Shown in pieces: positions 37,490 through 51,930 of a DNA stretch of 53,394 nucleotides. Positions within the stretch are counted from its first letter, which is position 1. Each line of letters starts with the position of its first letter. A program made the position numbers and the translations under genes. Origin of the DNA: Bacteroidia bacterium (GTDB lineage Bacteria > Bacteroidota > Bacteroidia > SXHM01); the NCBI GenBank assembly GCA_020054035.1, contig JAGVLY010000049.1, positions 1 to 53,394 on the forward strand, read 5' to 3'. The notes under the pieces were generated by a model. It had not been told where the DNA came from. It made no database searches and worked only from the letters and a program-made list of their open reading frames with translations.

Positions 37490-37493
37490 TGGA

Positions 37494-39814: not shown

Positions 39815-40384
39815 TTATAACCAGCCATCACCGGGTAAGGTGTTAGGATATGCGCTTACTACGACATCAATGATTCTTGTTTTTGATGTAGAACCGTCTG
39901 TGAGAGTAAAAATAAGGCGGTATGTTCCGGGAAGAATAACTGATTTAATCTTAGCATGAAATAGTAAAACACTATTATCGGCAGTAACAGCCTTCGTGGT
40001 CTGTGCAGGCGACATAGCATTAAAAAAACCGTTAGAGTCGGTAAAGTTTGCTGTTGCTGTGCTTGTATAACCATTACGCCCGAAATACCCTTGTATAGCT
40101 ATATAACCTCCCTGAACGTTTGAATCCTGAAAAGAAGAAGATGCGGGCCACTGATTAACAAGTCCGATACTTCCGCTTAATGCAAGAACATCCCATGTAG
40201 CCGCACTAAATGTGCCGGTAGAGCTTGTTCCCCATGTAAGGGTATCAAACTTGTAGGGTTGTTTGTTAATTGTCAGAATGTTGTTCTGAATACTGTTATT
40301 AGCTTCATTAAATATAGCTGCCGCTACAATGTAGTCTGCAATGGTTATTGCAACACTGCCGCCAAGAGGAACAATTTGTGCCAT
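39815..40384 (-). CDS. Hypothetical beta-rich protein (189 aa), candidate virion or surface protein
   Basis: S/T/G/N-rich sequence without TM segments. Tightly packed in the array, 12 nt from the next gene. Confidence 0.65.
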   Translation of the reverse strand: MAQIVPLGGSVAITIADYIVAAAIFNEANNSIQNNILTINKQPYKFDTLTWGTSSTGTFSAATWDVLALSGSIGLVNQWPASSSFQDSNVQGGYIAIQGYFGRNGYTSTATANFTDSNGFFNAMSPAQTTKAVTADNSVLLFHAKIKSVILPGTYRLIFTLTDGSTSKTRIIDVVVSAYPNTLPGDGWL

Positions 40385-40416
40385 GATGTTTGTTTGTTTT
40401 AGTTTGTATTAATTGT

Positions 40417-40908
40417 TTAATTGTTTGTATTTAACCAAGGAATATGCGGCTTTGCCCATGTTATTACTTTGTCAATGGTGAAGCCCATTACACCGTTTAC
40501 AACACAAATCAGCATCAGCCAGTCGCTTGTAATAACTATTTGCCAATCGTCAGGGGTTACAAACGCGAGAAAACGGATAAGTAAAAGGTTAGCGGCAACC
40601 GACAAGAACACTTTTCTAAAGTTGCGTTTCCAAAAATATTTTTTTGAATACTCGTTGGGTGAGTTCGGGTTTTGCTTTATCCCTTTATCCACTTCAAGTA
40701 TGGTATTTATAGCAGCTCCAAGAAGCGAAAAGATTGTTGCAGCAATGTAAAGCGCAATAGGTGTAGCACCCAGCAATAAGCCGGTAACAGTAACTATTAC
40801 TACTGTTGTATCTCTTTCCGCTGGCTGTGCTACTGTTAAGTAAGCACAGGCGAATAGCATTACAAAAAATAACAGGATGCTGATTTTAGTTGTGTTGTCT
40901 ATTTTCAT
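40417..40908 (-). CDS. Polytopic membrane protein (about 4 TM), holin-like by position
   Basis: Hydrophobic stretches are ISILLFFVMLFACAYL, VVIVTVTGLLLGATPIALYIAATIFSLLGAAI, VFLSVAANLLLIRFLAFV and WLMLICVVNGVMGF. It lies two genes downstream of the lysin. Confidence 0.7.
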   Translation of the reverse strand: MKIDNTTKISILLFFVMLFACAYLTVAQPAERDTTVVIVTVTGLLLGATPIALYIAATIFSLLGAAINTILEVDKGIKQNPNSPNEYSKKYFWKRNFRKVFLSVAANLLLIRFLAFVTPDDWQIVITSDWLMLICVVNGVMGFTIDKVITWAKPHIPWLNTNN

Positions 40909-40912
40909 TGGT

Positions 40913-41338
40913 TTAGTCTTTGCTTATTTTGGCTATGTCAACTTTTATTGCAGAGAGCTGGTCAAAAATTTTGTTCATCCGCGAATCCATCTTATCCTGA
41001 AACTCCACCATTTTATTTTCAAGAACATGGTGAAGGTGTTGGCGGTCGGTAATAGACTTTTCAGTGGAGTTCTCTAATTTTTTTATACTTTCTTCCAGTG
41101 TTACCAATGCTTCAGTAGTGGTGTTCCGCAGGTGCGTATGTTCACTTTGCAGTTGACGGAAATCAATTTCCTTTACAAAAGCATTGCAGGCAGTTTTAAG
41201 AACTTGTATTTCGTTGCGTTGCGAAACAAATACATCAATCAGCTTCCATATAGTGCCAAGCATGGCGGCAACTCCGATAAAAACTGCTGCCGCTCTACCT
41301 ATTAATTCCAAGTCGTTCATATATCTTATTGCGTTCAT
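40913..41338 (-). CDS. Membrane-anchored coiled-coil protein (141 aa)
   Basis: N-terminal TM AAAVFIGVAAMLGTIW followed by a heptad-like charged region. The ATG lies 2 nt after hairpin motif copy 3. Confidence 0.7.
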   Translation of the reverse strand: MNAIRYMNDLELIGRAAAVFIGVAAMLGTIWKLIDVFVSQRNEIQVLKTACNAFVKEIDFRQLQSEHTHLRNTTTEALVTLEESIKKLENSTEKSITDRQHLHHVLENKMVEFQDKMDSRMNKIFDQLSAIKVDIAKISKD

Positions 41339-41361
41339 TTGTGGATAGTGTCCACTATTTT
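41339..41361 (-). promoter_or_regulatory. Element-specific hairpin motif, copy 3 (gene junction)
   Basis: Core GTGGATAGTGTCCAC at 41341-41355, with one loop substitution. The minus strand reads AAAATAGTGGACACTATCCACAA. Its TAG is the stop codon of 41355..42092, and the motif ends 2 nt before the next ATG. Confidence 0.7.
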
Positions 41362-42092
41362 GGTTTGTTAAAAAATACCCGTTTCACACCCCAGCCGAAA
41401 AAAAAAAGTGCGCCAATGCCTGCGGCTGTTTTTCCGGGGTTGGCTTTTGCAGCATCTACCGCTTTGCCTGTTTCTTTAATTACTTCCTGTGCTACTTTCT
41501 TAATTCCTGAATAAGCATAGCTTTCAATTCGTGAAAGCCAGCCTTTCTCAAACTCAGGTTTGTTCAGGGATTTATAGTAATCCTTTCTCCATCTCTTTAT
41601 TTTCTCAAACAAGTCTGCTGGGTCCGCTGAATTGATAATTCCAATCTCACTTGCATCAATCGGTAAGGTTATTTTCTTGCCGGTTGTTTCGGTCAACATT
41701 CTACCAACCGTTCCGGGACTATGTTGAATGTTGGCATCGTAAATAATTTCGGCAATGCTTTGATCCGTGATGGTGTCGCCTTTTAATGGTAAATCCCAAA
41801 AAGCATTTTTAAAAATCTTTAAAGCAGTTTCATAAGGAAGTGCTTTCATTTCGGCTGCTGTTACTGGTCCGCCTTTCCATGCAGCAAGTGTAGGAGCTGC
41901 CACACCGAAGTTTGTTCCTACCAAAACAACACTACCGCCAATAGGTGAAATTGCTTTACCTGCTTTATCAAACTTAGCCCATGCGGTTTTATTACCGTTC
42001 ACAGCAAGCCAGTTTCCTAAATCTTTAGGATTAGCAGTATAGCCGCCTTCATACTGCTTTACTTTTGCCTGTGCTATTTTAAATTCTGCCAT
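41355..42092 (-). CDS. GH108-like N-acetylmuramidase (lysin) with C-terminal membrane anchor
   Basis: KQYEGGYTANPKD (EGGY catalytic motif of glycoside hydrolase family 108), GTNFGVAAPTLAAW, FWD and IIYDANIQHSPG follow the GH108 pattern, with an insertion after the EGGY region. The C-terminus GIGALFFFGWGV is hydrophobic. Confidence 0.7.
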   Translation of the reverse strand: MAEFKIAQAKVKQYEGGYTANPKDLGNWLAVNGNKTAWAKFDKAGKAISPIGGSVVLVGTNFGVAAPTLAAWKGGPVTAAEMKALPYETALKIFKNAFWDLPLKGDTITDQSIAEIIYDANIQHSPGTVGRMLTETTGKKITLPIDASEIGIINSADPADLFEKIKRWRKDYYKSLNKPEFEKGWLSRIESYAYSGIKKVAQEVIKETGKAVDAAKANPGKTAAGIGALFFFGWGVKRVFFNKPK

Positions 42093-42096
42093 TGTC

Positions 42097-43329
42097 TTAT
42101 GCCGCTTCCTGTAAAACTTCCTGTTCTTCTTTTTTTGATTTTGCTTTAAAGCTGTCTTTGTTTTGCCATATCAAACCAACTACAAGCAGTCCGCCTGCGG
42201 CAATAGCTATCTTTCCTGCATTGTCGCCAAGCTGGTCAAGTATGCCGCCTTTTTCAGCGTTTATCTTGTCATTTTCCTGTTGTGATTTTATGATTTCAAC
42301 TTTGCTTTCCTTCAACTCAGAAATAGTTCCATCTTTTTTCAGGGCAGCCTCTTCAAACTTTTTAGCACCTTCAACATCGCCTGCGGCTCTCCGCACTTCG
42401 GCTTGTTTATACAGCTCTGCTTTGTCTTTTTCTTCCGAAGCAATGCTTTTATCAATGTCTGAATTAGCCTTGGTTACATCGGCATTGTCAAGTGCCGTTG
42501 GTTTGGCATTGGTAACAATAAGCGCAGCCATCACCACCAGTGCGGCTGTGGCTACAACTGCACCCGCTATTAATAATACAGAGCCACTGATAACAAGCCC
42601 TAATCCTTCATCATCAGTATTGCCCAACGCCCACGATTTAAAAGAAGCAAACAGTTTTTTAGCCTTGTCCATTGCGGCATCTTTTGCTTCAGTAATAAGG
42701 CGGGCTGCTTTAAGTGTAGGATTGTTTTTGTATGCCGCCTGCCTTTTTTCGTAATTGGTTTTTACACGTTTCCATGTGGTGTATAATTTCAGGTAATCTT
42801 GCCCGAATTTATCTGCGGCTGCTTTGTCCTTAAACAAACCATACGGACCTTTATAGTTTGGTATTGCTTGTTGTTTTTTCAACTCAACAGAATGTGCCGA
42901 CATGCGGCTTACCATTGTATTGATAACCTTGCCTAATTGAGCAAGTTTGGTGAACGTATCGTAATCAACCTGCAACATGGATGAAAATTCATCTTTTGAG
43001 TTTGCAGGAATTTGAGCGGTTTGGTTATCAACTTTAACCGTAACCGTTTTCGGTTGCAACCTTGGTCCTTTTTTTGCCTGAAGCAAAAACAGTTTATCAA
43101 AATCCTTTTGGTCAACAACCGAATCTTTTCCGTAATACTTTTGCAGGGCAAGCAATGTGTTTCTGCCAAAGTCGCCATCGGTATTTAAACCCGCTCCTTC
43201 AGTGTTCAGCATCACCTGTAATTTTATTACCTGTGTTCCTTTGCTTCCCTTTTGTAAAGGAAACTTATCATCGCCTACTCCCCTTAAACAACAGCCTTGC
43301 AGCCAGTTTTTATATGCTAATTCGCTCAT
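42097..43329 (-). CDS. Peptidoglycan-binding-domain protein with TM segments and coiled-coil
   Basis: The N-terminus LQKGSKGTQVIKLQVMLNTEGAGLNTDGDFGRNTLLALQKYYG fits PG_binding_1. There is a central TM GLVISGSVLLIAGAVVATAALVVMAALIV and a C-terminal TM IAIAAGGLLVVGLIW. Confidence 0.75.
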   Translation of the reverse strand: MSELAYKNWLQGCCLRGVGDDKFPLQKGSKGTQVIKLQVMLNTEGAGLNTDGDFGRNTLLALQKYYGKDSVVDQKDFDKLFLLQAKKGPRLQPKTVTVKVDNQTAQIPANSKDEFSSMLQVDYDTFTKLAQLGKVINTMVSRMSAHSVELKKQQAIPNYKGPYGLFKDKAAADKFGQDYLKLYTTWKRVKTNYEKRQAAYKNNPTLKAARLITEAKDAAMDKAKKLFASFKSWALGNTDDEGLGLVISGSVLLIAGAVVATAALVVMAALIVTNAKPTALDNADVTKANSDIDKSIASEEKDKAELYKQAEVRRAAGDVEGAKKFEEAALKKDGTISELKESKVEIIKSQQENDKINAEKGGILDQLGDNAGKIAIAAGGLLVVGLIWQNKDSFKAKSKKEEQEVLQEAA

Positions 43330-43330
43330 G

Positions 43331-43714
43331 TTATTTTAATTTTTTATTAAGTTTTAACTGTGCATTAGTCATATAGGCTTGTGTTGCCGCAGTTTGCTGG
43401 ACTACACTTGCACCATACACATAATAATCGGGGATGTTGAGCGTATAAACTACTTTGGTAGTTCCTGCCGGGTCAAGCGGGCTTCCCGCCATTGACGGAA
43501 AGCGCAGCTTTGCTACTTCATAATGAACATCATCTGCAAATACAATAACGTTTGCCCAATCAATATCCGCCTGCACCAAATAATCGGGAGCGGCAGAATA
43601 AACCTGACTAACACCTTTTGAACGATAGGCGTGTGCCGCAAAAGCAAGCGCAAAGAACGCTGCCATTGCAGGTGCTTTGTCTTGGTTGGATGTATCTACA
43701 AATAGAACGTTCAT
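43331..43714 (-). CDS. LMW-PTP/ArsC-fold-like protein with substituted catalytic loop
   Basis: VLFVDTSNQDKAPAMAA aligns to the (I/V)xFVCTGNxCRSPMAE P-loop with Cys to Asp and Arg to Lys changes. The distal NVIVFADDVH and NIPDYY resemble the DxIxTMD and DPY segments. Confidence 0.6.
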   Translation of the reverse strand: MNVLFVDTSNQDKAPAMAAFFALAFAAHAYRSKGVSQVYSAAPDYLVQADIDWANVIVFADDVHYEVAKLRFPSMAGSPLDPAGTTKVVYTLNIPDYYVYGASVVQQTAATQAYMTNAQLKLNKKLK

Positions 43715-43715
43715 T

Positions 43716-43892
43716 TTATTTCAAAAAGCCTTTGTATTGGCGGATTAGTTTTGCATTTTCAGGTTTTTGGAGCTTTGCACTTAACTCAATTATTTCTTCG
43801 GGCGTAAATGCCTTTTGAAAATTGGTGAGAGCTGCGGCTACTTCTCCTTGTTGTTTTGCATCTTTTCCGATGCAGTCAATTTCGTATAACAT
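43716..43892 (-). CDS. Small hypothetical protein (58 aa), below the ORF-track cutoff
   Basis: My translation is MLYEIDCIGKDAKQQGEVAAALTNFQKAFTPEEIIELSAKLQKPENAKLIRQYKGFLK. It starts 11 nt after the upstream stop, and its TAA sits 1 nt before the next ATG (TAAAATG), so it exactly fills an otherwise empty gap. Confidence 0.6.
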   Translation of the reverse strand: MLYEIDCIGKDAKQQGEVAAALTNFQKAFTPEEIIELSAKLQKPENAKLIRQYKGFLK

Positions 43893-43903
43893 GGTATCGG
43901 TTT

Positions 43904-44947
43904 TTAAGTGGTTGCTGTTGTTTCGGCTGTTTTTGCTTCTTCTGCGGCTGTGCGGGCTTTCATTTCATTGTCCAGCACTTGATAAATGTCAACTGCCGCT
44001 TCAGGTGAAAATAATCCGTCCTTATCAAACATGCTTAATGTTACTTTCAGGAAAAGTTTAAATTCATCCAGTGTCATTACCTTGCAGGCTGCGATTAACA
44101 GAAGGATGTTTTTCTTATGGTCGGGGTCAAGCCCTGCAAACTCGTCTTTTGCGTCTGCGGGTTTTGGTGCAGCCGGTTGCGGAGCTGCGGGTTCGCTGGC
44201 AGCTTCGGTTTTTTCTTCAATCTTCTTTTCGCTTTCAGGGAAAAGGTTTTCCTGAATTACTTCTTTCGGAATGCCGATACCTTCCAGCACCCAAGGATTT
44301 TTTTGAACGGCACGTTCAAGCCCTGTTCCAAAAGCAGAGCCAATGATGTTGCTCCATTTTTCAGCAAAACTTTTGTTCTTTTCTTCCAGTCCTGCCAGTT
44401 GTTTGCTTCCAACGGCAATGGTTTCTATCAACTCCTGTTTTTCTTTTTCAACATCTTCCAGCTCTTTGTTAAGCAAAGCAAGTTTTTTGTCAAACTCGGC
44501 TTGTTGCTTATCAAGTGCCGCCTGATGGCGAAGCTCTGTAAGTTGATTTTGTAAAAGCTGTAATTGGTTTGCGCCCGGTTCTGTTAAAGTGGCTAATCTT
44601 TCATCCACAACTTTTTTCATGGCTTCTACCGCCTGTTCGGTGGTAGATTTTTCTTCGGGGTTGCCTAAACTGGTTGTTTCTTCCAGCTTAACTTCGCATT
44701 CTTCAACGCATGGTCCTTTCTTGTCGGCTGAAGGCATGATACGAATTTTTAAAGCGGTTGCACCATCGCGTATAGCACGGTTTACATAGGTATAGAAATC
44801 GGTTTCGCTGGTTGTAGGCGGGTAAGTAGTTCCCAGCCACATAGCAGCAATGTATTTACGCGAGATGTGAATATGTCGTCCGTCTTTTACAGACTTAAAC
44901 ATATCCACCAAATCAGGATATTTTGCTTTTAGTTCTTTGGTAGTCAT
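43904..44947 (-). CDS. Coiled-coil protein (347 aa), scaffold-like by composition
   Basis: A central Q/E/K/L-rich heptad region (LQLLQNQLTELRHQAALDKQQAEFDKKLALLNKELEDVEKEKQEL), then a PAAPQPAAPKP linker and an acidic tail. No enzymatic motif. Confidence 0.7.
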   Translation of the reverse strand: MTTKELKAKYPDLVDMFKSVKDGRHIHISRKYIAAMWLGTTYPPTTSETDFYTYVNRAIRDGATALKIRIMPSADKKGPCVEECEVKLEETTSLGNPEEKSTTEQAVEAMKKVVDERLATLTEPGANQLQLLQNQLTELRHQAALDKQQAEFDKKLALLNKELEDVEKEKQELIETIAVGSKQLAGLEEKNKSFAEKWSNIIGSAFGTGLERAVQKNPWVLEGIGIPKEVIQENLFPESEKKIEEKTEAASEPAAPQPAAPKPADAKDEFAGLDPDHKKNILLLIAACKVMTLDEFKLFLKVTLSMFDKDGLFSPEAAVDIYQVLDNEMKARTAAEEAKTAETTATT

Positions 44948-45363
44948 TAGTTATCGGTTTTTTTATCGGTTTGTAATAATTCTTTTAATTCCTGCATAAG
45001 AATTTCTCTCCTTCTCAAAATTTCTTCCTTTGAAATATCTTGCTCACCATCTGGAACGATGCGTAAAAATTCTACATCAATATTGGCAAGTTGTGATACT
45101 TGTATTTGACCTGTGAATATCTGATAGCGGTAGGCTACATGATTTTGATATTCGGCAGGGTTTGGGAAGTTTATAAACTCATCGCTTGAAAAAATTGTAA
45201 GTCCAACGGCAAACGTTGCGTTTAATAAAAGATAGTATTCATTATTAGCATTAAGATTAAGCGATTGTGCTGCCAAGTCTTTAAAATAAACAGGTTTGCA
45301 GGTGTAACTCTTTACACCTAACTGTTTCATTTTAATAGCCACATATTGCAGTATATCAAACAT
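44947..45363 (-). CDS. Hypothetical protein (138 aa)
   Basis: Its stop codon overlaps the downstream start codon by 1 nt (position 44947). Mixed beta-rich body with a charged helical tail. Confidence 0.7.
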   Translation of the reverse strand: MFDILQYVAIKMKQLGVKSYTCKPVYFKDLAAQSLNLNANNEYYLLLNATFAVGLTIFSSDEFINFPNPAEYQNHVAYRYQIFTGQIQVSQLANIDVEFLRIVPDGEQDISKEEILRRREILMQELKELLQTDKKTDN

Positions 45364-45368
45364 GCTGT

Positions 45369-45785
45369 TTAGTTAAATCCGTAATCGGTATTAGGAACAT
45401 CAATCGTGCTGTCGGTAATGTCTTCCAGCACTTCAAAATAATAGGTAGCGTTATAGTTGGTGGCACAGCTTTTTGTAACTGCAAAACCACTTACAACACT
45501 GTTTGACAATACATCTACATCGCATTTGCGGTATCCGAATTTGCCCTCAAACGTTGCTAAATTCTGAACCAATACATCACCCTGAAAAAGAGTTTCCCTG
45601 TCGCTGTTTACTTTCAGTGTTGTATAAAAAACATTTTCGGTTCCAATTCCTGAACGGTTGGCAGAAATATCATAACCGATAATTTTCTTCACGTTGGAAG
45701 GAAAACTAAAATCCAACTTCTGCATGAACAATGGAGCGTTCTGCATCGGTTGAGTATAAACGATTACTTTTTTTCTTAGCCGCAT
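45369..45785 (-). CDS. Hypothetical beta-rich protein (138 aa), candidate small capsid/jelly-roll-like protein
   Basis: Tight packing. The sequence alternates hydrophobic and polar residues as expected for beta strands. No motif recognised; the structural role is inferred only. Confidence 0.65.
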   Translation of the reverse strand: MRLRKKVIVYTQPMQNAPLFMQKLDFSFPSNVKKIIGYDISANRSGIGTENVFYTTLKVNSDRETLFQGDVLVQNLATFEGKFGYRKCDVDVLSNSVVSGFAVTKSCATNYNATYYFEVLEDITDSTIDVPNTDYGFN

Positions 45786-45810
45786 GGTTCATAATGTTTT
45801 GGATTAATCC

Positions 45811-46233
45811 TTATTTGTGTTGATAATCCGGTTCGTCCTTTTCATCATTGGACAAATCGAGATACACTTTCACCGTGTAAGCTCCGGTAATGACAAAGCC
45901 ACCACCATCAAGGTATTTGAATTTCAGCTTAGCACCATTAGCACGTTCGTTGATTTTGTATTTGCGACACATCGGTCCAACCGAAGTGGTGCTGAACAAT
46001 CTTTTCAATTCATAGCCGGCAGTAAGCACTTCCTGCGAATCAATGGTAAGCGGTGTGTCAAACGTTCCGCCTGTCAGTGAACGGGCATCATTTACTTCAA
46101 CACTTAACGATATTGTCCGTCTGAAATTGCGGTCAATCTCCTGGTCCATTGTAAAATCACCGCCCACAGCTCCACCGGCAGCAGTAATGTTGAATGAAAA
46201 AATCTGTTGGCGTAATTTTCTTAGCGTTGCCAT
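45811..46233 (-). CDS. Hypothetical beta-rich protein (140 aa), candidate small capsid/jelly-roll-like protein
   Basis: It follows the strong hairpin after the 259-aa gene. Beta-rich composition. The structural role is inferred only. Confidence 0.65.
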   Translation of the reverse strand: MATLRKLRQQIFSFNITAAGGAVGGDFTMDQEIDRNFRRTISLSVEVNDARSLTGGTFDTPLTIDSQEVLTAGYELKRLFSTTSVGPMCRKYKINERANGAKLKFKYLDGGGFVITGAYTVKVYLDLSNDEKDEPDYQHK

Positions 46234-46291: not shown

Positions 46292-46321
46292 GAAGTCCCC
46301 CGCATTGCTGCGGGGGACTTC
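46292..46321 (-). terminator. Very stable GC-rich hairpin after the 259-aa gene (terminator or attenuator, or RNA-stabilising element)
   Basis: Perfect 13-bp stem GAAGTCCCCCGCA/TGCGGGGGACTTC with loop TTGC. It starts 47 nt after the stop at 46368. The U-tract is clearer on the plus strand (CGTCCTTTTT) than on the gene strand. Confidence 0.55.
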
Positions 46322-46367: not shown

Positions 46368-47147
46368 TTAGTTCGGGTTAAGGCTGGTTCCAACAAAGCC
46401 CGCTTTGATAAACGGACGGATGTTACCACCACCTAACGGAATGCTTGCAGCTTGCTCAATCTCCAACTCAATCGCAACGTTCGGCTGAATGATAACCGGG
46501 TTATCAAAATAAACCAAGCCAAGGGCTACGTTTTGTTTGTTAGTTGTGTCAAAGTTCTGACCACCGTATTCTTTCAGGATTTCTTTGCTGTCATGGCGCA
46601 GAGTAACCTGTCCATTAATCACCGCACGGTGAGCAATACCAAAGGCAGCATCACCAACTCCGGCATTCAGCGTTTGTTCATATCCTGTTACGATTTGCAG
46701 TCCAAGTGCCAAGAATGGTTTATCGTTGTCAAGTTTTCCTTTGTCAACGTTACCAACTCCAACCGCTTTCTGGTCGCCCGATGTAAACATCTTAACCAAT
46801 CCCGCAGCTTGCAGTGCAAGTTTGGTTTGGAAGTAATACATGTCAACCATACGGATAGAGCCTTTCGCAAGTGCCTTACGGAACTCAGGAGGGAAAAATC
46901 CAAGACGGTTTAACAATTCAACACGGCTGTTCGGGTAAGCTGAAGCAGCTTGTCCTTTAACCGCACCCGCAGAAATCGCACGTTTGAATTTGTTGTATGC
47001 TCCGGTTTTGCCTGCTTTTGAGATGGCTCCAAGCAATGCCATTTGACCTTCGGGAGAAATCCCGCTAATCACGGCAGCCGCAACATCGTCCGGCATACCT
47101 TCTAATACTTCAGGAGAGATTTCTCCTATTCCTAATAATTGATCCAT
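46368..47147 (-). CDS. Hypothetical protein (259 aa), best candidate for a major virion protein
   Basis: No TM, with a beta-rich C-terminal two-thirds. It is followed by the strongest hairpin in the element, an arrangement I associate with highly expressed capsid genes. No sequence motif recognised. Confidence 0.7.
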   Translation of the reverse strand: MDQLLGIGEISPEVLEGMPDDVAAAVISGISPEGQMALLGAISKAGKTGAYNKFKRAISAGAVKGQAASAYPNSRVELLNRLGFFPPEFRKALAKGSIRMVDMYYFQTKLALQAAGLVKMFTSGDQKAVGVGNVDKGKLDNDKPFLALGLQIVTGYEQTLNAGVGDAAFGIAHRAVINGQVTLRHDSKEILKEYGGQNFDTTNKQNVALGLVYFDNPVIIQPNVAIELEIEQAASIPLGGGNIRPFIKAGFVGTSLNPN

Positions 47148-47288
47148 GATTTCTTAATTTTTATTTACTGTTAGTTTTTTTGTTTGTTTAATTTGCCAAG
47201 TCAACCTTTTTTAACTTTTTCATGCTGCCTGTTTTGTCAGCCGCAGATGGTTTTTAAAGCCCGTTAAATCCGGTTGTTTTTTTTGCAC

Positions 47289-47390: not shown

Positions 47391-47413
47391 CGTGTTTATT
47401 TTTAAAAAAGTTT

Positions 47414-48190
47414 TTATGCGTAAACAACTTCTTCCTCTTCAGCAGAAGCAAGGCTTGCAGCATCTTTGAATGATTCGCGGCTCAACAACGCTTCGTTTTT
47501 TCCACCCCAGCGGTTGTTCCAGTTTACGTTTTCAAGTCTTCCAACTCCAGCGCCCGAAACCCAGCCCATACCTTCAACCCAGCCTAAACCGAGTGCAGCT
47601 TTTTCAGCAATTTCTCCGGTAGATGGTTTTTCGGCAAGTTCAGTTCCTTTGAAACCGGCATCACGGTCCGCAGCGGCTTTCAGGATAGCCAGTGATTTTG
47701 CAACTTCTTCTTTGCTTTCAGGTGTTTGTGTTGTTCCGTCAAATTCAGTTTCACCCAATGAAGGCAGATATTTCGTTGCTTTCGGGTATGCTTTTTTAAC
47801 TCCGCTTACAACGCCTGTAATCGCCAATCCGTAACCTGCAAACTCACCGATTTCACCCAACATTTTTTCAGTCTGGTCAGTGCTTTTTGCGTATTTGTTA
47901 CCGTAATAAGCGGCAGCTCCGCCAATACCAACCGAAACGATTGGAGCGGCAAGGGCTTTGAGGCTTTCTTTCCATGCACCGCCTTTCCATGCCAGTCCAT
48001 CAGCACCGACAGCAGCGGGTTTAAGAATTTTATCAGAAAGCATTGCTATTCCTTTTCCGGCAAAGCAGCCGAGAACGAAATACAGCGGGCGGGTTACTAC
48101 TTTTGGAACTTCGGAGTTTACAACACCGGCAAATCCGCTGAAGCCCGTGTTAGATTTTTTAACGCCTGTCCCTTTTTTTGCTTTGGTCAT
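47414..48190 (-). CDS. Gly/Ala-rich membrane protein (258 aa)
   Basis: Hydrophobic segments are PLYFVLGCFAGKGIAML, LAAPIVSVGIGGAAAYY and FAGYGLAITGVVSGV. The tail is acidic. Confidence 0.75.
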   Translation of the reverse strand: MTKAKKGTGVKKSNTGFSGFAGVVNSEVPKVVTRPLYFVLGCFAGKGIAMLSDKILKPAAVGADGLAWKGGAWKESLKALAAPIVSVGIGGAAAYYGNKYAKSTDQTEKMLGEIGEFAGYGLAITGVVSGVKKAYPKATKYLPSLGETEFDGTTQTPESKEEVAKSLAILKAAADRDAGFKGTELAEKPSTGEIAEKAALGLGWVEGMGWVSGAGVGRLENVNWNNRWGGKNEALLSRESFKDAASLASAEEEEVVYA

Positions 48191-48250
48191 TTTGGTTGGT
48201 GTTTTTTGTTTGTTAGTAATTGATTGTTTATTGATTGGTGATTATTGTTA

Positions 48251-48274
48251 CAGTGGATTGTGTCCACTTTTTAT
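48251..48274 (-). promoter_or_regulatory. Element-specific hairpin motif, copy 4 (gene junction)
   Basis: Core GTGGATTGTGTCCAC at 48253-48267. The minus strand reads ATAAAAAGTGGACACAATCCACTG. Its TAA is the stop codon of the 1046-aa gene, and the next start is 63 nt downstream. Confidence 0.7.
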
Positions 48275-51200
48275 GAAAATGTTACTGCTTTGATTTTTGC
48301 TTTTGTTTTCGCTTTAGCCCTTGGCTTTGCTGTTCCGCTTAATGCCGATTTAGGTTTTGCGGGTGTTGGTTGTTTTGGGTCAAATGCCATCTTTAATCCA
48401 TAGCCTACAAGCCCTGTAATAAATGCAGCTCCTGCTATTTTAGCTCCGGTGCTGCCAAACATTCCGGCTTCTTCCTGCGAGGCTTTCATTTTTACATCAT
48501 TCGCCTCAATCGCTTTTATCTCTTCAGGAGAAAAGAACTTATCAGGTGCTTCCGCGAATTGCTGAATATCACCGGGAATAAGGTCCTTGCCTGTTTTGTT
48601 TTTGTAAAGCTGATTTGCAGCCGAAACCAATCCGCCTGCGGTTTTCACGCCCTGCGCCACTTTTTCAATAGTGGATGGTTTACCTTCTTCTCCTGAATCA
48701 TCGTCAGCATCCGCACCCTCTTTTTTGGCTTTCTTTGATTTTTTAACTTTCTTAGGCTTGCTGGCTTTTTTCTGTTTTTTAGCTTCTTTATTCTTTGCAC
48801 GTTTCGCTTGCCGCTCCGCACGTCTTGCCGCTCTTGAGTCTTTCTCTCCTAATCCGTCAATGCTGGCTTCGTCAAAATCTTCGCCACTCATAACGGGGTC
48901 AATAGCGCAATCTAAAGCAGTGTCAATATAATTCTGAACACCCAGCAATCCCTTCATAGAATCGGCTACATCCAATGCGGCATCTGCCACATCTTTAACT
49001 GCGTTGGTTGTTGATTCTACTTTATCTTCTTCATCCGGTTCTTCACCTGGAGGAAGGTCGTTAGCACCGTTCTTTTTAAGAAGTTTTGAAAGTGCTGCAA
49101 TGATGGTAGCGGCTGCGGCTATGCTTGTTCCTATAATAGTATTAGGTTCGCCAAGTCCATAAAATTCCACAAATCCTAAACCTTTCAGAGCTTCAATTTC
49201 TTTAATTTTAGGGCTGTATGATTTTTTCTTTTTCCAGCCTTTTTGCAGAGCTTTTGCAAGTTTATCCCTTTTGCCACCTAAAACATCTTCCCAAATCTTA
49301 GCGAATTTGTCAGCGGCTTTTTTCTTTCTGTCCCAGAAATCACGCTTTAAGCCATATTTCTGCGCTTCTTCCCAGCTCATAAATCCGGGATAAAGTTTAA
49401 GAGCAAGTTTGAAGAAGTTAAGTTTTGAAGCCAACAGGAAACCGTTGCGGGCTGCAATCATCAGGGGGTTAAACTTCTGAGCGAACTTGAAAACCTTTTT
49501 AAGTCCCTTTCCTACTTTTTTCCAAAACTTACCTTTCTTTTTCTTTTTGCCATCAAGCCCGTCAATGGTGTTATCCGTATCATACGCACCATTGAGCGAA
49601 GTATCATCTTCATCGGCATCACCAAACGCACCGAGCTTACTCATGCGCTCTTCTTCTTTTTCAAGATGCTCAACTGCTTTTTCGCGCTTGTAAGGATTAT
49701 TCCAGTTTTTCAGGGCGAAATCGCACATCTCCACATGCCTTTTCGCTCCGCCATGATTAGCAACACTGCCGGGATATTTAGCAATATAGTTACGGGTTTT
49801 ACGGATGTGTTTTTTCATTCCGTTTAACCATTGCGCCTGAATTTCAACAGGCAAAGAAGAAAGTTCTACTTCATCGTTATGACCGTTCAGGATGCTGTCG
49901 GTTGCAATCCATGTAGGCTCAAAATCAATTCCGCAAAGAATGCCGTCCAGCACTTCTTCGGGTTTTTCTTCCAAGTCGCTTTCTTCGTTTGCTTCTTCAA
50001 CAATTTCAGCAGCTTCGGGGCTATCAGCAGCCATGCTTTCCGAAATTTCATCCACTCCCTGATTCACATCAGCATAACCTTCTTCGGCTACTTGCTCTTT
50101 GTCTTCTTCCGGTGCGTTGTTTACTTGTTCATCAACAACCTCCATTTGTTGCTCTGCCTGTTGTAAAGGCTCATCGTATTGCGTAGGGGCATCAGGAGCG
50201 GGAAGGTTTGCATATTCTTCCATGCCCGGTTGAACCGGATAAGATGAACCACCACTTCCACCCGAAGATGCTGCGGCTGCGGAAGCGGCTGCGGCTGGTG
50301 AAATAGGAAATACAGGTGTTGAGCTTGCTGAAGGTGTTGCAGCTTGTATAGCTGCCATTTTTTTGGCAACAATAATTTTTGGAGCGGCTTTTTTAAGCCT
50401 GCGTATTCTGCGCTTGGCAATACGTTTAGCTTTTTTGGCTTTGCGTTTTACAAAACGTTTTGTTTTTTTCTTTCTGCCAAGGTCGCCAAGCCCGTCTTCA
50501 TCGTCAAAAACTCCTTCCAGTTCCAGATCTTCTTCAACGCCATCCAATACATCTTCTGCATCATCAATGCCGTCTAAGTCTTCATCTGAAATTCCTGAAA
50601 TGCCTGAAAAGCGGGCTTCGGCTTTCGCCAACCTGCCTTCCAGCTTTTTGCGTTTTTCAGCACTCAGGTTTGAGTTTTCAAGAAGTTTGCGAAGAACGCC
50701 TGCACGGTGTTGTGCGGCTTTTTTCAAAAAACGTTTTTCGGGAAACCATTTTCCGATTTCACCTAATCCTGAAACATCTTCATTATCAGGACCCGAAAGA
50801 AGGGCAATAGGAATACCAGCTAATCCGTTCATTTGTGTAGGTTTTATATTGATGTCTAATTTTCCTGCGGGGTCAAAATCATCGTCAGGCCCGTAAGGTT
50901 TTTCGATATTGAAGCCATCCAGCACACAGTCAAGCACAAATTGTTTTTTGCGCTCTTTGTCTTTTACAACAATATACACATGCTGCCAGTCGGATTTGTA
51001 TTTGCTGATTCTCATGGTAAAAGGAATACCAAGGCAGGTAAGGATGCACCCGATACTAAGTGTATAGCAATCGCAATCCCCAAAACGGTCATTCCACAGG
51101 CGGGCGGGGGTGCGGAGCTGTTCCTGTCCGGGTTCGTCATTCTGATACTGAACGTGATTATAGTAGAACGCCCAAATAGTGCGGAGCAATTCCGTCATAT

Positions 51201-51411
51201 CTTCACCTTTCTTCCAGCCGGTTGTTTCTTTCATCAGTTTGGCAATCTTTTCAGTTTGCCAACTGTATTTGTTGATGATGTTCGCCATCTCTTTGATGGT
51301 GAGCTTCAGGTTTCCGTCTTTGTGAAGGATGGAATCCTTTTCATCGGCTTTCGGAAAGTATTTATCAAACTCTTTCCCCGGTTGTAATTTGCGCTGATAC
51401 TTGGCTACCAT
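48271..51411 (-). CDS. 1046-aa multidomain protein: N-terminal transglutaminase-like cysteine protease core, alternating poly-basic and poly-acidic low-complexity tracts, TM segments
   Basis: RFGDCDCYTLSIGCILTCLGIPFTMRI...WQHVYIVV...FVLDCVLD fits the Cys-His-Asp transglutaminase-like core. Basic tracts are GRKKKTKRFVKRKAKKAKRIAKRRIRRLKK, GKKKKKGKFWKK and RAARRAERQAKRAKNKEAKKQKKASKPKKVKKSKKAKK. Acidic tracts lie between them. Hydrophobic segments are IIGTSIAAAATIIAAL and AKIAGAAFITGLVGYGL. Confidence 0.8.
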   Translation of the reverse strand: MVAKYQRKLQPGKEFDKYFPKADEKDSILHKDGNLKLTIKEMANIINKYSWQTEKIAKLMKETTGWKKGEDMTELLRTIWAFYYNHVQYQNDEPGQEQLRTPARLWNDRFGDCDCYTLSIGCILTCLGIPFTMRISKYKSDWQHVYIVVKDKERKKQFVLDCVLDGFNIEKPYGPDDDFDPAGKLDINIKPTQMNGLAGIPIALLSGPDNEDVSGLGEIGKWFPEKRFLKKAAQHRAGVLRKLLENSNLSAEKRKKLEGRLAKAEARFSGISGISDEDLDGIDDAEDVLDGVEEDLELEGVFDDEDGLGDLGRKKKTKRFVKRKAKKAKRIAKRRIRRLKKAAPKIIVAKKMAAIQAATPSASSTPVFPISPAAAASAAAASSGGSGGSSYPVQPGMEEYANLPAPDAPTQYDEPLQQAEQQMEVVDEQVNNAPEEDKEQVAEEGYADVNQGVDEISESMAADSPEAAEIVEEANEESDLEEKPEEVLDGILCGIDFEPTWIATDSILNGHNDEVELSSLPVEIQAQWLNGMKKHIRKTRNYIAKYPGSVANHGGAKRHVEMCDFALKNWNNPYKREKAVEHLEKEEERMSKLGAFGDADEDDTSLNGAYDTDNTIDGLDGKKKKKGKFWKKVGKGLKKVFKFAQKFNPLMIAARNGFLLASKLNFFKLALKLYPGFMSWEEAQKYGLKRDFWDRKKKAADKFAKIWEDVLGGKRDKLAKALQKGWKKKKSYSPKIKEIEALKGLGFVEFYGLGEPNTIIGTSIAAAATIIAALSKLLKKNGANDLPPGEEPDEEDKVESTTNAVKDVADAALDVADSMKGLLGVQNYIDTALDCAIDPVMSGEDFDEASIDGLGEKDSRAARRAERQAKRAKNKEAKKQKKASKPKKVKKSKKAKKEGADADDDSGEEGKPSTIEKVAQGVKTAGGLVSAANQLYKNKTGKDLIPGDIQQFAEAPDKFFSPEEIKAIEANDVKMKASQEEAGMFGSTGAKIAGAAFITGLVGYGLKMAFDPKQPTPAKPKSALSGTAKPRAKAKTKAKIKAVTFS

Positions 51412-51414
51412 GTT

Positions 51415-51930
51415 TTAGATTTTATAGTCAAGTGTTACAGGAAAGTCGATTCCGTAGGCGTGAATAGCCAAATCAACATTTATAGCCCGGTTTGCCGGTT
51501 GGCTTCCGAGTAATCGTGCGGTAAAATATTGTGCAGCATCTTTTATGGATGCGCCCAGCTTTTCAATGTTTACATTAAACTTTAAGGTAAGCGGATATTC
51601 GCTGGCATTGGCGGTAAGTGTGTGTTCCAGTGTGCTGGCTTCGCTGATGGCAACTGCGGCAGAGCGGTAAGAAACTTTTGCAAGCGGGTGTTGAAAACTT
51701 AAAGCTGTTCCTGTGGTGTTGGTGAGTTTGGCGGTAACTTCAAGCGGAAGAAAGGTTTCCATCTTCTTCTTGTCAACATTGTAACTGTTGAAGGGAACGC
51801 CAACTTTTATTTTTCCGGGTGCAACTACCAAGGCTTTTGCAGCCACAGCCATATCGTAAAGCTCTTTACCGATGAAGAAAGCTCCTACACCAATAGTTCC
51901 GATAAGTAAGTTGCGGGCTGCGGTTCTCAA
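51415..51930 (-). CDS. Membrane-anchored beta-rich protein (171 aa)
   Basis: N-terminal TM LLIGTIGVGAFFIG followed by a beta-rich domain. TTG start in the track; the true start is uncertain. Confidence 0.65.
   Translation of the reverse strand: MRTAARNLLIGTIGVGAFFIGKELYDMAVAAKALVVAPGKIKVGVPFNSYNVDKKKMETFLPLEVTAKLTNTTGTALSFQHPLAKVSYRSAAVAISEASTLEHTLTANASEYPLTLKFNVNIEKLGASIKDAAQYFTARLLGSQPANRAINVDLAIHAYGIDFPVTLDYKI

What the first reader, a model, noticed from the sequence alone, without database searches (positions are those of the whole stretch)
39815..51930. Virus-like module with many membrane proteins but no recognisable terminase, portal, tail or conjugation genes
Downstream of the integrase the element carries lysis-type functions: a GH108 lysin, a PG-binding protein and holin-like membrane proteins. 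It also carries a dense, translationally coupled run of small beta-rich proteins (259, 140, 138, 138 and 189 aa) and a coiled-coil scaffold-like protein.

The fraction of proteins with clear hydrophobic TM segments is unusually high. These are 40417..40908, 40913..41338, the 41355..42092 C-terminus, 42097..43329, 47414..48190, 48271..51411 and 51415..51930.

Reading every translation, I could not recognise a large terminase, portal, HK97-type capsid, tail tube, tape measure or baseplate. I also found no Bacteroidota Tra conjugation proteins.

This combination is what one expects from a non-tailed, internal-membrane-containing virus with small jelly-roll capsid proteins, or from a novel particle type. 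It does not fit a caudovirus prophage. At more than 27 kb, with a methylase/helicase and sugar-transferase load, it would also be larger than the PM2- and FLiP-like prophages I know of.

The alternative is that the hallmark genes lie to the right of the window.
Basis: inference. Interest (0 to 1): 0.75.

Follow-up and report, generated by a model that had tools for sequence, protein, structure and literature searches.

The report
Tailless membrane-phage prophage in Bacteroidia
The region is most likely the left two-thirds of a roughly 38 kb prophage of a tail-less, membrane-containing phage type. Its only isolated relative is the orphan Salisaeta phage SSIP-1, and current virus-detection resources do not recognise the group although it appears widespread in Bacteroidota.

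Summary
From the integrase (26732-27904) to the window end there is one minus-strand gene block with a lysis cassette, many membrane-anchored proteins and small proteins. Pfam and PHROGs find no terminase, portal, HK97 capsid, tail or Tra match.

The window is the whole contig, so I reconstructed complete relatives: a 38,315 bp circle and a 39,365 bp contig with an internal integrase, attP and cI-like repressor. Neither shows those hallmarks among the families the screens listed, so they do not lie beyond 53394.

The 259 aa protein (46368-47147) belongs to an unannotated family of 411 clusters at 50% identity. AlphaFold (pLDDT 91) gives six N-terminal helices plus a single jelly roll. Fold matches are weak but mostly viral capsid proteins.

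[quoted passage not shown] The C-terminal ATPase of the 914 aa protein matches gp40, the predicted packaging ATPase (60.5 bits; hhalign 98.5%). The N-terminal Cys-His domain of the 1046 aa protein matches gp34 (hhalign 96.9%; only phage tblastn hit).

The best reading is a temperate, tRNA-Arg-integrating, distant SSIP-1-like phage. No particle has been seen, and the capsid role is inferred.

The parts
26493..26576 (+). tRNA-Arg(ACG) and the attL core (26553-26576), the integration site
   Evidence: ARAGORN and Rfam both call the tRNA. Bases 26553-26576 match 22/24 a sequence next to the integrase in the unintegrated 39 kb relative, which is therefore attP.
26732..27904 (+). Tyrosine integrase
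   Evidence: Pfam Phage_integrase 6.6e-19 and Phage_int_SAM_5 1.3e-15. The orthologue in the 39 kb relative scores E 8.7e-150 and lies between element genes.
28275..31019 (-). 914 aa protein. Its C-terminal ~190 aa (28275-28856) is a RecA-fold, RadA/Sms-like ATPase homologous to SSIP-1 gp40, the predicted packaging ATPase and a virion protein. Walker A lies at 28722-28745.
   Evidence: phrog_6891 ATPase 6.3e-14. A profile of the domain hits RadA structures at E 2.3e-7 and the domain carries a KNRWGG motif. A four-sequence profile against gp40 gives 60.5 bits, E 4.8e-19, hhalign 98.5%. The protein is conserved in all four lineages examined.
31056..34769 (-). Strawberry-notch-like SF2 helicase, part of the conserved core
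   Evidence: Pfam AAA_34 3e-17 and Helicase_C_4 4e-21. Orthologues occur in the 38 kb, 39 kb and pPP10 elements with E = 0.
35280..36827 (-). N6-adenine DNA methyltransferase with an LPD3 domain, part of the conserved core. With the helicase it resembles polyvalent or DarB-like anti-restriction proteins.
   Evidence: Pfam LPD3 4e-8, weak Eco57I and N6_Mtase hits, phrog_14770. Orthologues occur in all lineages.
36827..39802 (-). Three lineage-specific cargo genes (220 aa; 495 aa with an FkbM methyltransferase domain; 273 aa DUF6734), probably for sugar or surface modification
   Evidence: Pfam. They have no homologues in the relatives, which carry other glycosyltransferases or an epimerase at the same position.
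39815..40384 (-). 189 aa protein with an N-terminal hydrophobic anchor; function unknown
   Evidence: Hydrophobic segment at aa 7-25. Two paralogous homologues occur in the 39 kb relative. No family match.
40417..41338 (-). Holin-like protein with 4-5 membrane segments (40417-40908) and a protein with an N-terminal anchor and coiled coil, weakly Rz/spanin-like (40913-41338)
   Evidence: Hydropathy; phrog_739 Rz-like spanin 2.7e-4.
41355..42092 (-). GH108 muramidase with a conserved C-terminal half and a weak C-terminal membrane anchor. The catalytic domain is swapped among relatives.
   Evidence: Pfam GH108 5e-13. The same slot holds SLT in the 39 kb relative and GH19 in the 38 kb lineage; pPP10 ends its cassette with an amidase. 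Only the C-terminal aa 143-241 align to the SLT protein.
42097..43329 (-). 410 aa protein: N-terminal PG-binding-like domain, two membrane segments and a coiled coil
   Evidence: PHROG endolysin stretches at aa 25-72. One unidentified protein of the 39 kb relative hit PG_binding_1 at 7e-4 in a screen that includes this protein's homologue. Hydrophobic segments at aa 254-272 and 370-388.
43331..43892 (-). 127 aa protein and a conserved 58 aa protein
   Evidence: Syntenic homologues. A ~58-62 aa ORF is conserved at this position in all lineages.
43904..44947 (-). 347 aa coiled-coil protein, conserved by position; possibly a scaffold, tape-measure or membrane-associated protein (not tested)
   Evidence: Homologues in L001, L002 and the 38 kb circle. 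Only coiled-coil noise in the family scans.
44947..46233 (-). Three small conserved proteins (138, 138 and 140 aa), candidate minor or second capsid and vertex proteins
   Evidence: Positional orthologues occur in most of the related loci; the third is missing in L004 and pPP10 carries a 401 aa protein in the second slot. Profile comparison with the jelly-roll family is only suggestive: 33% for the 140 aa family and 14% for one 138 aa family. They were not modelled.
46292..46321 (-). Perfect 13 bp GC-rich hairpin ~45 nt after the stop of the jelly-roll gene, acting as a terminator, attenuator or RNA stabiliser
   Evidence: The spacer folds at -43.7 kcal/mol, z -6.9. A strong hairpin of unrelated sequence sits in the same spacer in six related loci representing five lineages (z -3.5 to -6.9).
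46368..47147 (-). 259 aa jelly-roll protein, the candidate major capsid protein: helical N-terminal domain (46863-47147) and eight-stranded jelly roll (46368-46862)
   Evidence: AlphaFold2 with 103 sequences gave pLDDT 91.2 and pTM 0.85. Foldseek matches are weak and mostly viral jelly-roll capsid proteins. The family has 411 clusters and no annotation.
47414..48190 (-). 258 aa Gly/Ala-rich protein with three weak membrane segments
   Evidence: Hydropathy. Syntenic homologues.
48271..51411 (-). 1046 aa protein: N-terminal Cys-His (transglutaminase or papain-like) domain (50917-51306) homologous to the SSIP-1 structural protein gp34, a long charged low-complexity middle, and C-terminal membrane anchors
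   Evidence: The motifs DCDC...QHVY...D are invariant. The family profile against gp34 gives 38.9 bits, E 1.3e-12, hhalign 96.9%. tblastn against 50,697 phage records finds only SSIP-1 gp34, E 7e-6. gp34 also ends in a membrane segment.
51415..51930 (-). 171 aa protein with an N-terminal anchor; first gene of the conserved cassette
   Evidence: Syntenic homologues. It appears fused to the 1046-type protein in pPP10.
52340..53014 (-). Acyl-carrier-protein-like gene (52340-52612) and DnaJ-domain gene (52625-53014), the last early or middle genes before the contig ends
   Evidence: DnaJ Pfam 3.3e-5. The DSLD motif is visible in the translation. Homologues lie upstream of the cassette in the 39 kb relative, with PP-binding at 5.6e-12.

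Best explanation
The region from 26493 to the window end is the left ~27 kb of a ~38 kb temperate phage integrated into tRNA-Arg of an uncultured freshwater Bacteroidia bacterium.

It is not a tailed phage. [quoted passage not shown] SSIP-1 is a tail-less icosahedral dsDNA phage with an internal lipid membrane.

Proposed working, all inferred. The late operon (51930 down to 39815) would build a protein shell from the 259 aa jelly-roll protein, probably with the three ~140 aa proteins, around a membrane vesicle. That vesicle would be studded with the many anchored proteins: the 171, 1046, 258, 410 and 189 aa proteins and the C-terminally anchored lysin. The RadA-like ATPase, whose SSIP-1 homologue gp40 is a virion component and the predicted packaging enzyme, is the only candidate motor for loading the circular genome. 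The methylase and Strawberry-notch helicase pair travels with the structural genes in every lineage, so it may be delivered with the DNA as anti-restriction proteins. Release would use the lysin, the holin-like protein and the spanin-like protein.

Shown: gene content, synteny, the fold prediction, the two SSIP-1 homologies, the free circular relative, and attP/attL. Inferred: every virion role.
For: 1. No tailed-phage or conjugation hallmark was found in the window.

2. None appeared among the families listed by the Pfam and PHROGs screens of two complete relatives.
   - One is a 38,315 bp circle rebuilt from contigs of different samples that span each other's ends. Near-identical contigs occur in at least three datasets, and contig length 38,456 minus k = 141 gives 38,315.
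   - The other is a 39,365 bp contig with an internal integrase, attP and a cI-like repressor.

3. The only P-loops are the Sbno helicase and the RadA-like ATPase.

4. The jelly-roll fold is predicted at pLDDT 91. Foldseek hits are enriched in capsid proteins, including P23-77 VP17, HHIV-2, SPV1, SGIV and PRD1 P3.

5. The ATPase domain matches SSIP-1 gp40 at 60.5 bits and hhalign 98.5%. gp40 is the predicted packaging ATPase (PMC4124505) and is annotated as a structural protein.

6. The 1046 aa N-terminal domain matches SSIP-1 gp34, a structural protein, at hhalign 96.9%. It is the only hit in 50,697 phage records, and both proteins have the same layout of N-terminal domain plus C-terminal anchor.

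7. Phage-typical features are present.
   - The lysin slot holds swapped catalytic domains.
   - The genome has an integrase, attP and repressor layout.
   - The relatives' genes hit many PHROG families.
   - The 38 kb relative carries a diversity-generating retroelement.
   - A hairpin of conserved position follows the jelly-roll gene in the related loci tested.

8. The jelly-roll, 140 aa and one 138 aa protein are the best-conserved module proteins between the window and the 39 kb relative: 79, 76 and 84%, against 50-68% for the others.
Against: - No particle, induction or proteome data exist.
- Foldseek TM-scores are low (0.25-0.45), and jelly rolls also occur in cellular proteins such as TNF/C1q and the furin P domain.
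- Profile comparison of the jelly-roll family with the SSIP-1 gp45/gp46 family reaches only 12.6%.
- The ATPase is RadA/Sms-like rather than FtsK/HerA-like. Its only tblastn hit among phage records (E 7e-13) is in a 636 kb uncultured phage, so it need not be a packaging enzyme.
- In Persicobacter psychrovividus the ~17 kb cassette sits on a plasmid with its own Rep and ParAB genes, and a broken copy sits on a 1.07 Mb replicon. That is also compatible with a non-viral cassette.
- One protein of the 38 kb relative hits a PHROG named 'tail fiber protein' (3.9e-15). I could not identify which protein it is.
- The Pfam and PHROGs screens of the relatives listed only the top 25 of 41, 50 and 59 matched families, so the negative result covers what was listed.
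Confidence: 0.65

Rival explanations
1. It is a non-viral mobile element: an integrative or plasmid-borne cassette whose membrane proteins, cell-wall hydrolase, helicase and ATPase form a new DNA-transfer, secretion or vesicle-export apparatus. On this reading the jelly-roll protein is an adhesin or lectin-like component rather than a capsid.
For: - The ~17 kb core cassette occurs on a Rep/ParAB plasmid in Persicobacter.
- The 38 kb circle carries a ParB-like gene and no integrase.
- Methylase-helicase 'polyvalent' modules are also typical of conjugative elements (established knowledge).
- The jelly-roll fold is not capsid-specific.
Against: - No relaxase, coupling protein, VirB4/TraG-type ATPase or Bacteroidota Tra protein was found in any of the genomes.
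- Two cassette proteins are homologous to proteins found in purified SSIP-1 virions.
- The cassette includes a lysis set and sits in a genome with a lambda-like repressor, integrase and attP.
- PADLOC finds no defence system.
Confidence: 0.13
2. It is a virus, but not an icosahedral capsid-and-inner-membrane one. Instead it would be a pleomorphic or enveloped vesicle-type virion, like pleolipoviruses or plasmaviruses, in which the jelly-roll protein is a spike or matrix protein and no packaging motor is needed.
For: - Membrane proteins make up a very high share of the module.
- There is no FtsK/HerA ATPase.
- One Foldseek hit is to a pleolipovirus protein (HHPV4, probability 0.98).
- The N-terminal helical domain could bind membrane.
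Against: - The homologues gp34 and gp40 belong to an icosahedral T=49 virion.
- A lysis cassette is unusual for budding viruses.
- Most Foldseek hits are shell proteins.
Confidence: 0.1
3. It is a defective or domesticated remnant, for example a gene-transfer-agent-like or bacteriocin-like system, that no longer forms infectious virions.
For: - The element is cut by the contig end, so its integrity cannot be checked.
- The pPP1 copy in Persicobacter is visibly broken, with the central genes replaced.
Against: - All 15 module ORFs and the flanking core genes are intact and tightly packed.
- A close relative exists as an unintegrated 39 kb genome with attP, and another as a 38.3 kb circle recovered in several samples.
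Confidence: 0.08
4. It is an ordinary tailed prophage whose terminase, portal, capsid and tail genes lie beyond the window end or are too diverged to recognise.
For: The window ends inside the element.
Against: - Complete genomes of relatives, covering the equivalent of the missing part, show no such genes among the listed families and no further P-loop ATPase.
- There is no room for a ~20 kb head and tail module in 38-39 kb genomes that are already mapped.
Confidence: 0.03

Closest known systems
[quoted passage not shown]
   Same: - It has a homologous RadA-like virion ATPase, gp40.
- It has a homologous Cys-His-domain structural protein with a C-terminal anchor, gp34.
- Its late region holds many C-terminally anchored small membrane proteins.
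- The genome type and size are similar: circular dsDNA of about 38-44 kb.
- It lacks an FtsK/HerA-type ATPase hit: gp40 itself best matches RadA.
- Its capsid is reported to be built from small, probably single-jelly-roll proteins (PMC4958249, PMC6260650).
   Different: - Only 2 of ~20 module proteins are detectably homologous.
- The capsid proteins gp45 and gp46 are not significantly similar to the 259 aa family (12.6%).
- SSIP-1 has a 2,319 aa structural protein (gp43). It has no detectable homologue of this element's methylase, Sbno helicase or integrase and no annotated integrase.
- This element is temperate and integrates into a tRNA gene.
- Here the ATPase is the C-terminal domain of a 914 aa protein.
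- The host is a freshwater Bacteroidia bacterium rather than a halophile.
Vertical single-jelly-roll viruses of Helvetiavirae (Thermus phages P23-77 and IN93; haloarchaeal SH1, HHIV-2, SNJ1)
   Same: - They are tail-less, have an internal membrane and build the shell from small single-jelly-roll proteins.
- Some are temperate (IN93, SNJ1).
- Foldseek lists P23-77 VP17 and HHIV-2 capsid chains among the hits.
   Different: - Those viruses encode an A32/FtsK-HerA-type packaging ATPase next to two capsid genes. Here only a RadA-like ATPase exists, and it lies far from the jelly-roll gene.
- TM-scores are low (0.17-0.41).
- There is no sequence similarity.
Double-jelly-roll membrane phages (PRD1/Tectiviridae, PM2/Corticoviridae, FLiP, Autolykiviridae)
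   Same: - The overall plan is similar: shell, inner membrane, membrane-anchored entry and lysis proteins, and a virion-associated cell-wall hydrolase.
- From my own knowledge, PRD1 P7 is a virion-associated transglycosylase.
   Different: - The one modelled protein has a single jelly roll of ~160 residues, not a double one.
- No DJR capsid family and no FtsK/HerA ATPase were detected.
- The genome is 2.5 to 4 times larger.
Phage P1 DarB and polyvalent proteins of phages and conjugative elements (methylase plus helicase delivered with the DNA)
   Same: An N6 methylase with LPD3 and a large SF2 helicase are encoded next to each other and are linked to the structural genes in every lineage.
   Different: - Here they are separate genes.
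- The helicase is of the Strawberry-notch type.
- Packaging into particles is untested.

Membership tests
SSIP-1-like tail-less membrane phages (unclassified) | Homologue of the virion ATPase gp40 | tested here: met
   A four-sequence profile of the ATPase domain against gp40 gives 60.5 bits, E 4.8e-19 (57-protein database; still about 5e-11 if scaled to 5.8e9 sequences) and hhalign 98.5% over 159 columns, including motifs outside the P-loop.
SSIP-1-like tail-less membrane phages (unclassified) | Homologue of the structural protein gp34 | tested here: met
   hhalign 96.9%, hmmsearch 38.9 bits. tblastn against all phage records hits only SSIP-1 gp34, E 7e-6. The domain and anchor layout is the same.
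SSIP-1-like tail-less membrane phages (unclassified) | Capsid proteins of the gp45/gp46 type | tested here: inconclusive
   gp46 is the top SSIP-1 hit of the jelly-roll profile but is not significant (E 0.15). The profile-profile comparison gives 12.6%, colinear over 131 columns. BFVD hit I1ZBH9 (211 aa, probability 1.0, TM 0.36/0.43) has the length of gp46, but its identity could not be checked.
SSIP-1-like tail-less membrane phages (unclassified) | Icosahedral virion with an internal lipid membrane | not testable with these tools
   This needs induction, electron microscopy, lipid analysis and chloroform sensitivity tests.
Helvetiavirae (two vertical single-jelly-roll capsid proteins plus an A32-type ATPase) | FtsK/HerA (A32-like) packaging ATPase | tested here: not met
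   The only P-loop proteins are the Sbno helicase and the RadA-like ATPase, in the window and in the complete relatives.
Helvetiavirae (two vertical single-jelly-roll capsid proteins plus an A32-type ATPase) | Two single-jelly-roll major capsid proteins | tested here: inconclusive
   One jelly roll is predicted. The 140 and 138 aa families show only 33% and 14% hhalign probability to it.
Bamfordvirae prokaryotic DJR phages (PRD1, PM2, FLiP, Autolykiviridae) | [quoted passage not shown] | tested here: not met
   The model shows one eight-stranded jelly roll after a helical domain. No DJR family appears in the Pfam or PHROGs results.
Caudoviricetes (tailed phages) | Large terminase, portal and HK97-fold capsid protein | tested here: not met
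   The module proteins of the window have no match. None appeared among the listed families for all ORFs of the two complete relatives. No unassigned P-loop ATPase remains.
Bacteroidota conjugative or mobilisable elements (CTn/ICE) | Tra proteins, relaxase, coupling protein, VirB4-type ATPase | tested here: not met
   No such Pfam, NCBIfam or PHROG hits. PLSDB types pPP10 as non-mobilisable.
Known anti-phage defence systems | Match to PADLOC system proteins | tested here: not met
   Only two marginal hits (MTase_II 4e-4, SngA 5e-4) among 21 proteins.

The most novel reading that the evidence does not exclude
The 259 aa family (411 clusters at 50% identity) may mark a widespread, so far unrecognised lineage of Bacteroidota phages that are tail-less and contain a membrane. 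It would include both temperate and plasmid-borne forms. Its shell protein would be a single jelly roll with a helical N-terminal domain. Its virion ATPase would be RadA/Sms-like rather than FtsK/HerA-like. It would obligatorily carry a methylase and a Strawberry-notch helicase. On this reading SSIP-1 is an outlying member, and the group would be a family- or order-level (possibly higher) taxon distinct from both Bamfordvirae and Helvetiavirae, with a packaging mechanism not yet described.
Probability: 0.45. Interest if true: 0.82.

Novelty: new variant of a known kind. Interest (0 to 1): 0.72.

Why it matters
- Tail-less membrane-containing phages are badly under-sampled, and SSIP-1 has stood alone in the sequence databases since 2012.
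- If this reading is right, SSIP-1 gains hundreds of relatives across freshwater, groundwater and marine Bacteroidota.
- The close relatives I tested are absent from IMG/VR, and the structural proteins have no PHROG or Pfam family. Current virome pipelines would therefore probably miss these elements.
- A cultured strain, Persicobacter psychrovividus NBRC 101262, carries the cassette on a plasmid, so the idea can be tested at the bench.
- The group raises a mechanistic question: how is a 38 kb genome packaged with a RadA-like ATPase and no FtsK/HerA or terminase enzyme?
- It also bears on the evolutionary relationship between single- and double-jelly-roll virus lineages.

Tried and rejected
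- Extending the contig is impossible. The window is the whole 53,394 bp contig, and exact look-up of the 1046 aa protein found nothing.
- Close relatives of the 259 aa protein and of P0159 are absent from IMG/VR, from GenBank phages and from GTDB representative genomes.
- Alignments A2, A3 and A6 were too divergent for the locus finder.
- The word-indexed search with the 103-sequence profile saturated and returned only nine proteins.
- PDB sequence searches found nothing for the jelly-roll family, for the Cys-His domain or for the full 914 aa protein.
- The first AlphaFold model, built from six sequences, reached only pLDDT 62 and was superseded.
- BLAST shows no paralogy among the module proteins.
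- hhalign between the module families gave only weak signals.
- SSIP-1 gp45/gp46 have only three further homologues in 5.8 billion proteins, and the resulting profile does not significantly match the jelly-roll family.
- A defence-system reading was rejected.
- A conjugative-element reading was rejected because no Tra, relaxase or coupling-protein genes exist.
- An FtsK/HerA packaging ATPase was rejected: the domain is RadA-like.
- The original SSIP-1 paper (PMC3344969) is not held in the library.

Full report
**Layout of the window.**
Host genes run to about 26365; they include folP, a SpoIIE-type phosphatase, truA, an ABC exporter and prmA. A tRNA-Arg(ACG) gene follows at 26493-26567, then a tyrosine integrase at 26732-27904 on the plus strand. 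From 28275 to the end of the window every credible gene lies on the minus strand. The window is the entire contig: the cluster of the 259 aa protein reports a longest contig of 53,394 bp. The right end of the element therefore cannot be read directly. The host is an uncultured freshwater Bacteroidia lineage, because its TruA is 96-97% identical to those of several lake MAGs.

**Check of the observation.**
- GH108 is solid for 41355-42092.
- The PG-binding call for 42097-43329 and the spanin-like call for 40913-41338 are weak.
They are strong in five proteins and weaker, Gly/Ala-rich, in three.
- Pfam, PHROGs and NCBIfam give no terminase, portal, HK97 capsid, tail or Tra match.
- PADLOC gives no defence system.

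**The 259 aa protein (46368-47147).**
A word-indexed search found only five close homologues. A full HMMER scan of 1.84 billion cluster representatives with their profile found 411 clusters at E <= 1e-3, nearly all 200-270 aa long. None of the sampled members carries more than the name 'hypothetical protein', and only one of 103 members matches any PHROG.

With a 103-sequence alignment AlphaFold2 gave pLDDT 91.2 and pTM 0.85. The model has six helices in residues 12-95, followed by an eight-stranded beta sandwich in residues 98-258.

Foldseek found no close structural relative; TM-scores are 0.25-0.45. The lists are nevertheless dominated by viral jelly-roll shell proteins:
- SGIV and PBCV-1 major capsid proteins
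- P23-77 VP17 and HHIV-2 capsid chains
- SPV1 major capsid protein (probability 0.98)
- PRD1 P3
- CRESS-virus capsids

Cellular jelly rolls (C1q/TNF, the furin P domain) also appear. The fold is therefore established as a prediction, but the capsid role is not.

**Synteny in relatives.**
The gene order is 171, 1046, 258, 259, 140, 138, 138, 347, ~58, (127), 410-like, lysin (lengths in aa). It recurs, with small variations, in the related contigs recovered, down to 24-40% identity of the 259 aa protein. The lysin slot holds a different catalytic domain in each lineage: GH108 here, SLT in the 39 kb relative and GH19 in the 38 kb lineage. In pPP10 an amidase closes the cassette. The C-terminal half of the lysin is conserved.

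**Complete genomes of relatives.**
- *The 38,315 bp circle.* Near-identical ~38.4 kb contigs from at least three datasets (ENA, JGI) carry the module. Two of them have different end points and each reads through the other's ends. One contig length (38,456) minus the assembler k-mer (141) equals the rebuilt circle of 38,315 bp.
- *The 39,365 bp contig.* This Logan contig holds the closest relative, with a jelly-roll protein 79% identical. I recovered 38,363 bp of it. Its integrase lies between element genes. Next to it is a 24-nt copy (22/24) of the 3' end of the window's tRNA-Arg, which is attP. Beyond that lie a cI-like HTH repressor and divergent early genes.

The window therefore shows attL, and the missing right part is roughly 10-11 kb. 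By analogy it would hold a reverse transcriptase, small early genes, a 543 aa protein of unknown function and the repressor.

All ORFs of both genomes were screened against Pfam and PHROGs. Among the families listed, none is a terminase, portal, HK97 capsid or tail-tube family. The hits are methyltransferases, a reverse transcriptase, ParB-like, DnaJ, ACP, MazG-like, HNH and endonuclease VII, repressors and endolysins. One unidentified 'tail fiber' PHROG hit occurs in the 38 kb circle. Each screen listed only the top 25 families when more matched. A Walker-A scan finds only one P-loop ATPase besides the helicase.

**The conserved core.**
Four lineages share the structural-type cassette plus an N6 methylase, a Strawberry-notch-like helicase, the ATPase protein and a lysin. 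They are the window, the 39 kb genome, the 38 kb circle and a ~17 kb cassette on Persicobacter psychrovividus plasmid pPP10. Maintenance modules differ:
- integrase and tRNA integration in the window and the 39 kb genome;
- a ParB-like gene with no integrase in the 38 kb circle;
- Rep and ParAB in pPP10.

A second copy, on the 1.07 Mb replicon pPP1, is rearranged.

**The link to a real virus.**
I compared profiles of every module family with the 57 proteins of SSIP-1.
- *The 1046 aa protein and gp34.* The N-terminal domain of the 1046 aa family has invariant DCDC...QHVY...D, that is, a Cys-His-Asp arrangement. It matches the SSIP-1 structural protein gp34 at 38.9 bits and hhalign 96.9%. tblastn of the window's domain against all 50,697 phage records returns only gp34, E 7e-6. 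Both proteins end in a membrane anchor.
- *The ATPase and gp40.* The ATPase domain profile matches SSIP-1 gp40 at 60.5 bits and hhalign 98.5% over 159 columns. The match extends well beyond the P-loop. gp40 is annotated as a structural protein and is cited as the predicted packaging ATPase (PMC4124505).
- *Nature of the ATPase.* Both gp40 and the domain here have bacterial RadA/Sms as their best solved-structure match, at about 33 bits. The domain here also carries a RadA-type KNRFG-like motif. They are closer to each other than to RadA, and they are not of the FtsK/HerA type.
- *What SSIP-1 is.* The literature describes it as a ~100 nm, T=49, internal-membrane phage with a 44 kb circular genome, unclassified, with two probably single-jelly-roll capsid protein types (PMC6356626, PMC4958249, PMC6260650, PMC5332951).
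- *The capsid proteins.* The paralogues gp45 and gp46 have only three further homologues in 5.8 billion proteins. Their profile aligns colinearly with the jelly-roll family but not significantly (12.6%).

**Supporting details.**
- A strong hairpin (13 bp stem at 46292-46321) follows the jelly-roll gene. A hairpin of unrelated sequence sits in the same spacer in six related loci (five lineages), with z-scores of -3.5 to -6.9. This fits a device that raises the yield of that one transcript, as expected for a major structural protein. That reading is an inference.
- The jelly-roll, 140 aa and one 138 aa protein are the most conserved module proteins.

**Weighing the evidence.**
- *For a virus.* The case rests on the temperate-phage genome plan, the lysis cassette, the free circular relatives, the two homologies to virion proteins, the predicted capsid-type fold, and the absence of any conjugation or tailed-phage machinery.
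- *Against certainty.* No particle data exist. The structural similarity is weak. The ATPase family also occurs in a 636 kb uncultured phage. The cassette is plasmid-borne in Persicobacter.
- *Probabilities.* I put about 0.65 on a tail-less, membrane-containing icosahedral phage distantly related to SSIP-1. The remainder I split among a non-viral cassette (0.13), a pleomorphic virion type (0.10), a defective remnant (0.08) and a hidden tailed phage (0.03).

**Novelty.**
The kind of virus (tail-less, inner membrane, small jelly-roll shell proteins) is known, and SSIP-1 is a recognisable if distant relative. New here are:
- the breadth of the family;
- its temperate and plasmid-borne life styles in Bacteroidota;
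- the helical-domain-plus-single-jelly-roll protein;
- the RadA-like ATPase in place of the lineage-typical packaging enzyme;
- the obligatory methylase and Sbno helicase pair.

I found no paper in the library that describes relatives of SSIP-1.

Noticed in passing
L012 14310-14382, 16262-16334, 16654-16726, 16841-16913; RT gene 16943-17965: The 38 kb circular relative carries a diversity-generating retroelement. A 73-nt template repeat lies just upstream of the reverse transcriptase, and three variable copies lie in the 3' parts of three small genes; the copies appear to differ mainly at template adenines (judged by eye). The 39 kb relative has an orthologous RT (E 3.6e-133), so the missing right end of the window's prophage probably has one too.
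   Followed up: partly
window 28860-28961 and 29265-29366: The 914 aa protein contains two copies of a 34 aa motif, IYDIxKxLRxTxDxKYTDAKGRGAGSHHGGVxLG, upstream of the ATPase domain. Its function is unknown.
   Followed up: no
window 31074-31127 and 35763-35819: The helicase C-terminus and the middle of the methylase share an acidic leucine-rich peptide, LELEAEA(I/V)xxELELLSF (BLAST E 1e-4 within the window). It may be a docking or pairing motif between the two proteins.
   Followed up: no
window 34770-35279: A 510-nt gap lies between the helicase and methylase genes. It holds a plausible 122 aa ORF on the opposite strand (34910-35278) that is absent at this position in the relatives.
   Followed up: no
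NZ_AP025302.1 (pPP10) 37272-53207 plus 1-1170; NZ_AP025293.1 (pPP1) about 417.7-433.7 kb: A cultured marine bacterium, Persicobacter psychrovividus NBRC 101262, carries an intact ~17 kb copy of the core cassette on a 53 kb Rep/ParAB plasmid. A second copy, 93-97% identical at the flanks, lies on a 1.07 Mb replicon with its central genes replaced.
   Followed up: partly
LR756504.1 200516-200941: The only tblastn hit for the window's ATPase domain among phage records is in a 636 kb uncultured 'huge phage' (38% identity, E 7e-13). The record is unannotated and the context was not examined.
   Followed up: no
JN880423 24775-25737 (SSIP-1 gp40): The 'packaging ATPase' of SSIP-1 best matches bacterial RadA/Sms among solved structures (E 4e-7) and not FtsK/HerA-type ATPases. 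This is relevant to how SSIP-1 is placed among PRD1-like viruses.
   Followed up: partly
38 kb circle (alignment A4 members): One protein of the 38 kb relative matches phrog_3201 'tail fiber protein' (3.9e-15), and three match phrog_11581 (9e-19), probably the retroelement targets.
   Followed up: no
window 52340-52612 and 52625-53014: An acyl-carrier-protein-like gene and a DnaJ-domain gene sit just upstream of the structural cassette and are conserved in the 39 kb relative. This is unusual cargo for a phage early or middle region.
   Followed up: no
L004 5397-5909: In one distant relative a 170 aa protein with a type IX secretion sorting domain (Por_Secre_tail) follows the small-protein genes, and an ECF sigma factor lies downstream. 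This may be host DNA or a divergent module.
   Followed up: no
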